Part shown: positions 48,007-48,620 of the stretch, piece by piece | Numbering within the stretch: position 1 is the first letter of the stretch | Layout: every line of letters starts with the position of its first letter | NCBI RefSeq assembly: GCF_045037415.1 | Contig: NZ_CP173438.1 | DNA from: Escherichia coli | GTDB taxonomy: Bacteria > Pseudomonadota > Gammaproteobacteria > Enterobacterales > Enterobacteriaceae | Direction: 5' to 3' (one strand) | DNA length: 64,000 nucleotides | Made by a program: the position numbers and the translations under genes | Notes under the pieces: generated by a model | What the model was told of the DNA's origin: nothing | The model's database searches: none | Seen by the model: the letters and a program-made list of their open reading frames with translations, nothing else

Positions 48007-48569
48007 TTTTTCTGATGGTTATTGACATAATTATATTCAGGGGATTATCGGATGATTTAAATAAAAAGCAATGATGAGGAAAATATACAAATGAATAATG
48101 TATTTTTCAGGGGAATAGATACAGTTGTATCATTTTAGATATTGTTTGGCCTCTTGATTATTTTTCGGGAGAGGGCGGCATTATCTGGTGAGAGAATTTG
48201 GCATGAAACTTAAAATAATAACAGGATAAGCTTCACAAATTTGCACTTTTAAGAAATTGGGTAGTATGAGAGCCTATTAAGATATTCATGAAACTTATTG
48301 TCCGGGCTTCCACAAAAAATTATTAATTTTTCTACTAATTAAAAGGTTGTGTGTTTTTTGTACAAGAATTATATAAGCGTAGCGCCCTGTTGTGATATTG
48401 AAATGTTAACATAACCAAAATAAATTGATTTATAGAATATATAAATGAAATTCATTAATGGGGTATATGTTTAATATATAAATAAGATGGATAGCTTTGA
48501 TTGAGGGATATTAACGGTTTACTCATTGTCTCAGGCTTCACTGAAACGGGTAAGGAGGCGTAAAAACGA

Positions 48570-48620
48570 AAAAACCGCAAGCTAATAGTCGCTTTGCGGT
48601 TTGTCAGCATTCTAATAAAT

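What the first reader, a model, noticed from the sequence alone, without database searches (positions are those of the whole stretch)
48007..48570. AT-rich control region of about 560 bp upstream of tssB, abutting the tRNA terminator
This long AT-rich non-coding stretch between the tRNA-proximal repeat and tssB is the probable main promoter region of the T6SS operon. AT-rich tracts like this are typical H-NS-silenced horizontally acquired promoters. I could not identify convincing Fur boxes or clustered GATC sites by eye.
Basis: inference. Interest (0 to 1): 0.3.

Follow-up and report, generated by a model that had tools for sequence, protein, structure and literature searches.

The report
Fur-controlled T6SS promoter region, metV island
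This AT-rich, gene-free stretch is the already-studied control region in front of the first gene (tssB) of the type VI secretion cluster that pathogenic E. coli carry next to the metV tRNA genes; it is ordinary, except for a possible built-in RNA hairpin that could block translation of stray read-through transcripts.

Summary
Window 47986-48569 (584 bp, 30% G+C against 51% for the window) is non-coding. It lies between the tssB start codon (47985, minus strand) and the terminator hairpin of the metZWV tRNA operon (48570-48603).

The window is E. coli ExPEC DNA, 100% identical to ST131 genomes. All of the region, terminator included, belongs to the metV genomic island.

The promoter reading is supported by published work on this same locus:
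- The Fur gel-shift primers of Ma et al. 2018 (PMC5874247) map exactly to 47986-48245.
- Fur shifts that fragment.
- Mutating the Fur boxes derepresses tssB.

H-NS is only partly supported. CFT073 ChIP-seq (PMC9765446) lists tssB as bound by H-NS and StpA. An hns deletion in APEC did not raise hcp1 or clpV1.

By sequence, Fur-box matches are weak (11-12 of 19, no better than shuffles). They cluster on a perfect TATAAT inside a 54-nt block that is invariant across 11 alleles. The region has no GATC, so the EAEC sci1 Fur/Dam switch does not apply.

One new lead: a 21-bp fold-back, with a 13-nt perfect core, pairs 48083-48063 with the tssB ribosome-binding site. It would form only in transcripts that start upstream of the proximal promoters. 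This is untested.

Verdict: already known, low interest.

The parts
48570..48603 (-). Intrinsic terminator of the metZWV tRNA-fMet operon. It is carried by the island and followed by a U-tract that runs to about 48557.
   Evidence: Folding gives a centroid of -14.7 kcal/mol and z = -2.67. K-12 has a different terminator directly after the metV CCA end. The same stem arms, with a different loop, recur at 6693-6765.
48246..48569 (.). Distal AT-rich spacer. It is poorly conserved and has no ORF or RNA family. It is a likely H-NS/StpA platform and a target for IS1.
   Evidence: 15.6% of columns vary among 11 alleles. It lies outside the fragment that sufficed for Fur-regulated expression. An IS1 with a 9-bp target duplication sits at 48427-48435 in strain AZ184, and a deletion derivative shares that junction. 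A deletion from about 48482 into clpV occurs in strain IAL7254.
47986..48245 (-). Proximal promoter-operator fragment. It equals the published Fur EMSA probe.
   Evidence: Primers T6SS1-F and T6SS1-R from PMC5874247 Table S2 map exactly to its two ends. Published results on it are the Fur shift, the loss of shift on box mutation and the derepression of tssB. Variable columns fall from 13.3% (48245-48111) to 5.6% (48110-47986).
48082..48110 (-). Candidate sigma-70 promoter P1: -35 CTGAAA (48110-48105), 17-bp spacer, -10 TATATT (48087-48082). Predicted start near 48075.
   Evidence: Found by the consensus scan at 9 of 12. It is the top PWM score within the EMSA fragment. It is a prediction only; promoter-like sites in the region are not enriched over shuffles (5 found against 3.4 +/- 1.9).
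48030..48035 (-). Perfect -10 hexamer TATAAT of candidate promoter P3, which has a weak -35. Predicted start near 48023. A further candidate, P2, has -10 GATAAT at 48049-48044.
   Evidence: PWM scan. The TATAAT hexamer lies in the block 48039-47986, which is invariant in all 11 alleles.
48013..48044 (.). Cluster of Fur-box-like matches overlapping the TATAAT. It is the likeliest Fur operator.
   Evidence: 19-mer consensus matches of 12, 11, 11 and 11 of 19 start at 48014, 48017, 48020 and 48026; three of them are in 6-bp phase. Two 7-1-7 palindromic matches lie at 48013-48027 and 48025-48039. Each is individually no better than shuffles. The exact published boxes appear only in a figure that is not held.
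48063..48083 (-). 5' arm of the fold-back (UUUUCCUCAUCAUUGCUUUUU). It is complementary to the tssB ribosome-binding region.
   Evidence: 13-nt perfect inverted repeat (I2). It extends to 21 bp with one bulge in the minimum-energy fold. A 13-nt repeat is reached in 3 of 400 dinucleotide shuffles. A C-to-A change at 48076 occurs in 5 of 11 alleles with no compensating change.
47986..48007 (-). 3' arm of the fold-back. It contains the Shine-Dalgarno GAGGA (47997-47993) and three GGA motifs.
   Evidence: Invariant in all 11 E. coli alleles and in Entomohabitans teleogrylli. SD P(unpaired) is 0.002 in transcripts starting at or upstream of 48110, and about 0.43 in transcripts starting at 48075 or 48023.
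47485..47985 (-). tssB (vipA), the small subunit of the contractile sheath and the first gene of the cluster.
   Evidence: RefSeq annotation of identical DNA in MNCRE44. It is followed by tssC, tssK, tssL, an OmpA-family gene and hcp.
48621..48917 (-). metV, metW and metZ: three tRNA-fMet genes whose 3' end is the island's insertion point.
   Evidence: ARAGORN and Rfam. Comparison with K-12.

Best explanation
The stretch is the tRNA-proximal, non-coding border of the ExPEC metV genomic island, and it has three jobs.

1. Its first ~50 bp carry an island-borne intrinsic terminator that ends the metZWV tRNA transcript.
2. The next ~320 bp are a fast-evolving AT-rich spacer. It probably does little beyond binding H-NS/StpA and separating the tRNA operon from the island.
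3. The last ~260 bp, and above all the last ~110 bp, hold the sigma-70 promoter, the Fur operator and the 5' leader of tssB.

With iron available, Fur sits on weak, overlapping Fur boxes across the -10 region and blocks RNA polymerase. Iron limitation or serum releases it, and the tssB-to-hcp (and clpV) genes are then transcribed.

**Shown, in published work on the same locus:** Fur binding, loss of binding and derepression on box mutation, induction by fur deletion or iron limitation, and H-NS/StpA occupancy of tssB.

**Inferred here:** the position of the operator and of the -10 element, the transcription start, and the passive role of the distal half.
For: **Identity of the locus.**
- The region is 100% identical to ST131 chromosomes. 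It occurs once, next to the tRNA-Met genes and tssB in every record inspected, in 1337 of 5426 complete E. coli genomes.
- K-12 diverges immediately after the metV CCA end.
- A copy of the tRNA 3' end plus the terminator arms marks the far border at 6693-6765.

**Fur control.**
- The published EMSA and control primers map exactly into the window.

**Conservation gradient among 11 alleles that differ by up to 8.4% from the window allele.** Variable columns are:
- 15.6% in the distal part;
- 5.6% in 48110-47986;
- 0 of 54 in 48039-47986;
- 4.8% in the tssB coding sequence.

**Operator and promoter placement.**
- Fur-like matches cluster in 6-bp phase on the invariant TATAAT.
- Validated sci1 Fur boxes also score only 11 and 13 of 19.

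**H-NS/StpA.** tssB has H-NS occupancy 0.32 and StpA 0.28 in CFT073. The CFT073 tssB is the metV-adjacent gene.

**Generality.** Long AT-rich upstream regions are the rule for this T6SS family.
Against: - No transcription start has been mapped. Three proximal promoter candidates and one distal candidate score similarly, and promoter-like sites are not enriched over shuffles.
- Fur-box matches are not distinguishable from chance by sequence alone. The published box positions could not be read because they are in a figure only.
- The published work used APEC TW-XM. Its allele was not retrieved; other non-ST131 alleles, including APEC O1, are about 98% identical to the window.
- The hns deletion had no effect on hcp1 or clpV1, so the H-NS role is unclear.
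- The ops leader before tssH means this need not be the only promoter of the cluster.
Confidence: 0.85

Rival explanations
1. **H-NS-silenced xenogeneic promoter.** H-NS/StpA filaments nucleated on the AT-rich stretch are the main brake on the T6SS, and Fur is secondary.
For: - The region has 30% G+C in a 51% context.
- tssB is on the CFT073 H-NS-bound list for both H-NS and StpA. A 77-nt gene listed just before it is also bound.
- In the hns stpA double mutant, RfaH-bound RNA polymerase appears on tssH-c3398 of the same island.
- IS1 insertions occur in the region; IS1's preference for AT-rich DNA is stated from memory.
Against: - An hns deletion in APEC raised the genes of the other T6SS cluster but not clpV1 or hcp1 of this one.
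- Matches to the high-affinity H-NS motif TCGATAAATT do not exceed shuffles (2 against 1.8).
- StpA may have masked the single hns deletion, so the negative result is not decisive.
Confidence: 0.35
2. **Fold-back insulator, added on top of Fur control.** The arm at 48083-48063 pairs with the tssB ribosome-binding site at 48007-47986.
- All proximal candidate starts (about 48075, 48037, 48023) lie inside or beyond the 5' arm. Transcripts from the native promoter therefore lack the anti-SD core and can be translated.
- Transcripts that enter from upstream carry both arms and are translationally blocked. Such transcripts would come from read-through of the strong tRNA operon or from stray promoters in the AT-rich spacer.
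For: - A 13-nt perfect core extends to 21 bp with one bulge.
- A repeat this long is reached in 3 of 400 dinucleotide shuffles anywhere in the 635 nt.
- In 79 related loci the longest complement to the SD window is 5-8 nt.
- SD P(unpaired) is 0.002 for long transcripts and about 0.43 for short ones.
- The geometry fits all three proximal promoter candidates.
- The architecture is that of Tn10/IS10 'fold-back inhibition' (from memory).
Against: - The fold's z-score is only -1.78.
- 5 of 11 alleles carry C48076A, which breaks a G-C pair without compensation and raises P(unpaired) to 0.28.
- There is no covariation. Entomohabitans, with an identical 3' arm, has a diverged 5' region.
- The pairing was noticed post hoc, and no start site is known.
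Confidence: 0.2
3. **Fur/Dam epigenetic ON/OFF switch of the EAEC sci1 type.** A GATC within the Fur box is methylated when Fur leaves, which locks expression on.
For: The T6SS gene order (tssB, tssC, tssK, tssL, an OmpA-family gene, hcp, clpV) follows the sci1 order as I recall it, and the cluster has the same regulator, Fur.
Against: - There is no GATC anywhere in 47986-48620.
- Ma et al. report no substantial identity between the two promoter regions.
Confidence: 0.02
4. **The stretch encodes a small RNA or a small protein rather than, or besides, a promoter.**
For: It is a long intergenic stretch next to a hairpin that could terminate in both directions. Several short ORFs exist.
Against: - No Rfam family matches at E <= 1.
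- No terminator-like site lies inside the stretch.
- ORFs are 28 aa or shorter, and one is frameshifted by a 4-nt deletion in UPEC 536.
- The distal part evolves faster than the tssB coding sequence.
Confidence: 0.05

Closest known systems
APEC TW-XM 'T6SS1' promoter (Ma et al. 2018, Emerg Microbes Infect, PMC5874247)
   Same: It is the same locus. The EMSA primers, the negative-control primers and a deletion primer all match the window. It has Fur-repressed tssB/vipA with two predicted Fur boxes, and about 250 bp upstream suffice.
   Different: It is a different allele: non-ST131 alleles such as APEC O1 are about 98% identical over the intergenic stretch, but the TW-XM sequence itself was not retrieved. 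The box and -10/-35 positions in that paper could not be read here.
EAEC 042 sci1 promoter (Brunet et al. 2011, PLoS Genet, PMC3145626)
   Same: It fronts tssB of a T6SS with the same gene order (recalled from memory). Fur represses it through weak boxes (11 and 13 of 19), one of which overlaps the -10. It is poorly expressed in rich medium.
   Different: There is no sequence identity. sci1 has three GATC sites and a Dam-dependent switch, whereas this region has none.
H-NS/StpA-bound pathogenicity loci of UPEC CFT073 (Hustmyer et al. 2022, mBio, PMC9765446)
   Same: tssB of this island is on their H-NS-bound list. The cluster holds one of their eight ops leaders, before tssH.
   Different: The ops is 6.5 kb downstream, not in this region. 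Silencing of the tssB promoter itself was not reported.
Tn10/IS10 protection from outside transcription ('fold-back inhibition'; Davis, Simons and Kleckner 1985, cited from memory)
   Same: An inverted repeat straddles the native start, so only read-through transcripts can sequester the ribosome-binding site.
   Different: It is not a transposase gene and there is no homology. The effect is untested here, and the pairing is imperfect in about half of the alleles sampled.
tRNA-linked genomic island borders (PAI-metV of CFT073; Lloyd et al., cited from memory)
   Same: Insertion is at the 3' end of a tRNA gene, with a direct repeat of the tRNA end at the far border. The island is absent from K-12.
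   Different: No ORF separates the tRNA from tssB, so no integrase lies at this border. The repeat extends 52 nt beyond the tRNA and includes the terminator stem.

Membership tests
Fur-repressed promoter (Fur regulon) | A Fur box resembling GATAATGATAATCATTATC at or near the core promoter | tested here: inconclusive
   The best matches are 11-12 of 19, clustered at 48013-48044 on the TATAAT. They are no better than same-composition shuffles. Validated sci1 boxes score 11 and 13 of 19.
Fur-repressed promoter (Fur regulon) | Direct Fur binding, and derepression in a fur mutant or under iron limitation | not testable with these tools
   Published for APEC TW-XM on the fragment that equals window 47986-48245: EMSA shift, loss of shift on box mutation, and derepression.
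sci1-type Fur/Dam epigenetic switch | GATC site(s) overlapping the Fur box and promoter elements | tested here: not met
   Zero GATC in 47986-48620.
H-NS-silenced horizontally acquired promoter | Marked AT-richness relative to the genome, on acquired DNA | tested here: met
   30% G+C against 51%. It is island DNA, absent from K-12 and from 75% of complete E. coli genomes.
H-NS-silenced horizontally acquired promoter | H-NS occupancy in vivo | not testable with these tools
   Published CFT073 ChIP-seq: tssB has H-NS occupancy 0.32 (cut-off 0.07) and StpA 0.28.
H-NS-silenced horizontally acquired promoter | Derepression when H-NS is removed | not testable with these tools
   The published results are mixed. 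The hns deletion had no effect on clpV1 or hcp1 in APEC. RNA polymerase with RfaH appears on tssH-c3398 in hns stpA CFT073. tssB itself was not reported.
tRNA-associated genomic island border | Sequence diverges from island-free strains at the tRNA 3' end, and the tRNA end is repeated at the other border | tested here: met
   K-12 differs from the base after the CCA end. A 13-nt tRNA end plus 52 further nt is repeated at 6693-6765.
Sigma-54-dependent T6SS promoter | A TGGCAC-N5-TTGCW element on the coding strand upstream of tssB | tested here: not met
   There is one 3-mismatch hit, on the wrong strand. Shuffles give 1.3.
RfaH/ops-controlled leader | GGCGGTAGnnTG on the non-template strand of the leader | tested here: not met
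   None in 47986-48620. The only exact ops in the window is at 41514-41525, before tssH.
RNA thermometer (fourU/ROSE-like) | SD pairing that opens between about 25 and 42 C | tested here: not met
   Predicted SD P(unpaired) stays at 0.001-0.003 from 25 to 42 C in long transcripts.
IS10-like fold-back inhibition of read-through transcripts | An inverted repeat with one arm covering the SD and the other upstream of the native start | tested here: inconclusive
   The arms are present and unusual, and the predicted starts fall inside or beyond the 5' arm. No start is mapped, and an uncompensated mismatch occurs in 5 of 11 alleles.

The most novel reading that the evidence does not exclude
The 21-bp fold-back between 48083-48063 and the tssB ribosome-binding site may be a built-in translational insulator. 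It would silence tssB on any transcript that enters from the neighbouring, very strongly transcribed initiator-tRNA operon or from stray promoters in the AT-rich spacer. Sheath synthesis would then depend strictly on the Fur-controlled proximal promoter. This transposon-style device has not, to my knowledge, been described for a secretion-system island inserted next to a tRNA operon.
Probability: 0.2. Interest if true: 0.45.

Novelty: already known. Interest (0 to 1): 0.15.

Why it matters
The region decides when about a quarter of complete E. coli genomes arm this T6SS. Those genomes include ST131, CFT073, 536, APEC O1 and the probiotic Nissle 1917. The system is used for competition between bacteria and for biofilm formation.

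The main facts are already in print: Fur repression and H-NS/StpA occupancy.

What this analysis adds is modest:
- an exact mapping of the published probe onto the sequence;
- a conservation gradient that narrows the functional core to about 110 nt, with a 54-nt invariant block;
- the absence of the Dam switch known from EAEC;
- a testable idea about insulation from tRNA read-through.

Tried and rejected
- **Rfam scan** at E <= 1 over 47000-49500 found only the three tRNAs.
- **Small ORFs** are not conserved or overlap the terminator.
- **Motif scans** for sigma-54, CRP, FNR, PhoP, ArcA, IHF and the H-NS high-affinity site do not exceed shuffles.
- **ops:** none in the region.
- **GATC and Dam switch:** none.
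- **RNA thermometer:** the predicted pairing is insensitive to temperature.
- **Short direct repeats** (for example CATGAAACTTA twice) are not conserved between alleles, so I treated them as chance.
- **Cross-genus footprinting failed.** The closest non-E. coli locus (Entomohabitans teleogrylli, TssB 98%) shares only about 25 nt before the ATG plus faint residual similarity. The other loci are unrelated in sequence upstream.
- **Plasmid collection:** no match.
- **Literature searches for a mapped transcription start** in UPEC, ST131 or Nissle found none.
- **The exact Fur boxes and BProm elements of Ma et al.** could not be read, because they appear only in a figure.

Full report
**What the window is.** The three tRNA genes at 48621-48917 (minus strand) are initiator tRNA-Met genes. 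mltA, tcdA, csdE and csdA follow on the right. tssB, tssC, tssK, tssL, an OmpA-family gene and hcp run leftward on the minus strand. The 635 bp between tssB and metV are 100% identical to E. coli ST131 chromosomes such as MNCRE44. They occur once per genome in 1337 of 5426 complete E. coli genomes, next to the tRNA-Met genes and tssB in every record I inspected. These genomes include CFT073, UPEC 536, APEC O1, NC101 and Nissle 1917. None of the listed records annotates anything in this stretch except an IS1 in one strain.

**The observation.** G+C drops to 26-33% across 48000-48600, against 46-55% on both sides.
- The near border should be 47986. RefSeq starts tssB at ATG 47985, and relatives align from residue 1. 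The GTG at 48006 is only an upstream in-frame codon.
- The far border is right. A hairpin at 48570-48603 followed by UUUUUUCGUUUUU forms the tRNA operon terminator, with a centroid of -14.7 kcal/mol and z = -2.67.
- The stretch is non-coding. It has no Rfam family, no ORF above 28 aa apart from one that overlaps the terminator, and one short ORF is frameshifted in UPEC 536.

**Island context.**
- K-12 diverges from the window at the first base after the metV CCA end and has a different terminator, followed by amiC. The whole stretch, terminator included, is therefore island DNA.
- At 6693-6765 there is a second copy of the last 13 nt of metV plus 52 further nt. The terminator stem arms are identical and the loop is different. 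This marks the far border of the ~42-kb T6SS island, beyond which a second island begins.

**What is already known about this DNA.**
- *Fur (Ma et al. 2018, PMC5874247).* The authors studied 'T6SS1' of APEC TW-XM.
  - Their EMSA primers match the window exactly at 48245-48225 (minus strand) and 47986-48006. Their negative-control primer lies in tssB. Their probe is therefore window 47986-48245.
  - Deleting fur or limiting iron induces hcp1 and clpV1.
  - Fur shifts the probe, and two Fur boxes were predicted.
  - Mutating the boxes abolishes the shift and derepresses tssB in rich medium.
  - About 250 bp of upstream DNA suffice on a plasmid.
  - The promoter shares no substantial identity with the EAEC sci1 promoter.
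  - Deleting hns raises the genes of the other T6SS but not clpV1 or hcp1.
- *H-NS/StpA (Hustmyer et al. 2022, PMC9765446).* This is ChIP-seq in CFT073.
  - Their list of 798 H-NS-bound genes includes tssB. H-NS occupancy is 0.32 against a cut-off of 0.07, and StpA is 0.28.
  - tssC and tssK returned no hits in the text held for that file, which was cut when stored.
  - I checked that the CFT073 tssB is the metV-adjacent gene.
  - They also report an RfaH ops leader before tssH that is used only in an hns stpA mutant. The identical ops, GGCGGTAGCGTG, is at 41514-41525 in the window.

**What the sequence adds.**
- *Fur boxes.* The best matches to the 19-bp consensus are 12 of 19, which same-composition shuffles reach routinely. 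The validated sci1 boxes also match only 11 and 13 of 19. Within the EMSA fragment the matches cluster at 48013-48044, in 6-bp phase, as two adjacent 7-1-7 half-palindromes. They sit directly on a perfect TATAAT at 48035-48030.
- *Dam switch.* There is no GATC in the region, so the Fur/Dam switch of sci1 cannot operate here.
- *Conservation.* I aligned 11 alleles whose intergenic identity to the window allele ranges down to 91.6%.

| Segment | Variable columns |
|---|---|
| Terminator flank 48620-48570 | 25.5% |
| Distal spacer 48569-48246 | 15.6% |
| 48245-48111 | 13.3% |
| 48110-47986 | 5.6% |
| 48039-47986 | 0 of 54 |
| tssB coding sequence | 4.8% |

 The functional core is therefore the last ~110 nt.
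- *Promoter candidates on the coding strand*:
  - P1: CTGAAA-17-TATATT, start near 48075.
  - P2: TTGCTT-16-GATAAT, start near 48037.
  - P3: TTAAAT-19-TATAAT, start near 48023.
  - Distal: ATCACA-17-TATAAT, start near 48361, outside the fragment that sufficed in the published work.
  - Promoter-like sites are not enriched over shuffles, and no start has been mapped.
- *Other motifs.* Scans for sigma-54, CRP, FNR, PhoP, ArcA, IHF and the H-NS high-affinity site do not exceed chance.

**How general the feature is.** In 78 tssB loci from other genera, recovered with the TssB protein, the median distance to the nearest upstream long open frame is 626 bp. The median G+C of the 300 bp upstream is 0.35 against 0.47 for tssB. 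A long AT-rich leader region is the family norm. The closest foreign locus (Entomohabitans teleogrylli, TssB 98%) also has about 600 bp upstream but shares only the last ~25 nt before the ATG. It is not next to a tRNA within the 2.5 kb of upstream DNA retrieved.

**One unexplained feature.** The region's longest inverted repeat is a perfect 13-mer. In mRNA sense, UUUUCCUCAUCAU (48083-48071) is complementary to AUGAUGAGGAAAA (48002-47990). The latter contains the tssB Shine-Dalgarno GAGGA.

*For a real structure:*
- Folding extends the pairing to 21 bp with one bulge.
- A 13-nt perfect repeat appears in 3 of 400 dinucleotide shuffles of the region.
- In 79 related loci the longest complement to the SD window is 5-8 nt.
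- Partition-function folding gives SD P(unpaired) of 0.002 for transcripts that start at 48569, 48361 or 48110. For starts at 48075 or 48023 it is about 0.43. There is no change between 25 and 42 C.
- All three proximal promoter candidates start inside or beyond the 5' arm. Only transcripts coming from upstream would therefore be blocked. This is the logic of IS10 fold-back inhibition (recalled from memory).

*Against it:*
- The overall fold z-score is only -1.78.
- 5 of 11 alleles carry C48076A without compensation, which raises P(unpaired) to 0.28.
- There is no covariation, and the pairing was found post hoc.

I rate this reading at about 0.2.

**Verdict.** The promoter reading is right and already demonstrated experimentally. 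H-NS binds nearby, but silencing of this promoter is unproven, and there is no Dam component. 'Main promoter of the operon' should be softened, because an ops leader precedes tssH. The finding is ordinary and already known. Only the fold-back idea offers something new to test.

Noticed in passing
window 6693-6765: A second copy of the last 13 nt of metV plus 52 nt of downstream sequence. The terminator stem arms are identical and the loop differs. It marks the far border of the T6SS island, with another island (1-6700) behind it, so two islands sit in tandem at metV.
   Followed up: partly
window 41514-41525 (minus strand): An exact RfaH ops element, GGCGGTAGCGTG, 48 nt upstream of the tssH/clpV start codon (41466). 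It matches the cryptic RfaH target reported in CFT073 (PMC9765446) and suggests a second control point inside the cluster.
   Followed up: partly
window 48427-48435; loci L088 and L002: An IS1 with a 9-bp target duplication is inserted here in the ST131-like strain AZ184. Another isolate keeps the same IS1 junction but has lost tssB through to the vgrG region. This looks like IS1-mediated inactivation of the T6SS.
   Followed up: partly
locus L090 (strain IAL7254), equivalent to window ~48482 into clpV: A deletion joins the sequence 88 nt past the terminator to the 3' part of clpV. It removes the promoter and tssB through hcp, so this is a decayed copy of the island.
   Followed up: no
locus L091 (strain BEC1-S17-ESBL-07): Only one tRNA-fMet gene lies between mltA and tssB, instead of the usual three (metZWV).
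   Followed up: no
window 48004-47988 (minus strand): Three GGA motifs (GUGGAUGAUGAGGAAAAGGAUAUG) crowd the 25 nt before the tssB start. They are invariant in E. coli and in Entomohabitans. This is a possible CsrA binding cluster over the ribosome-binding site, and it is untested.
   Followed up: no
window ~12000-13700, 23200-24400, 27000-27250, 32650-33900: Other stretches inside the T6SS island have G+C below 38% and are as AT-rich as the finding. Island genes c3394 and c3405-c3409 are on the H-NS-bound list in CFT073.
   Followed up: no
locus L004 (Entomohabitans teleogrylli): It carries a T6SS whose TssB is 98% identical to the E. coli protein, but it is not next to a tRNA within the retrieved 2.5 kb and its upstream region is unrelated. 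This suggests recent transfer of the gene cluster between genera with replacement of the control region.
   Followed up: partly
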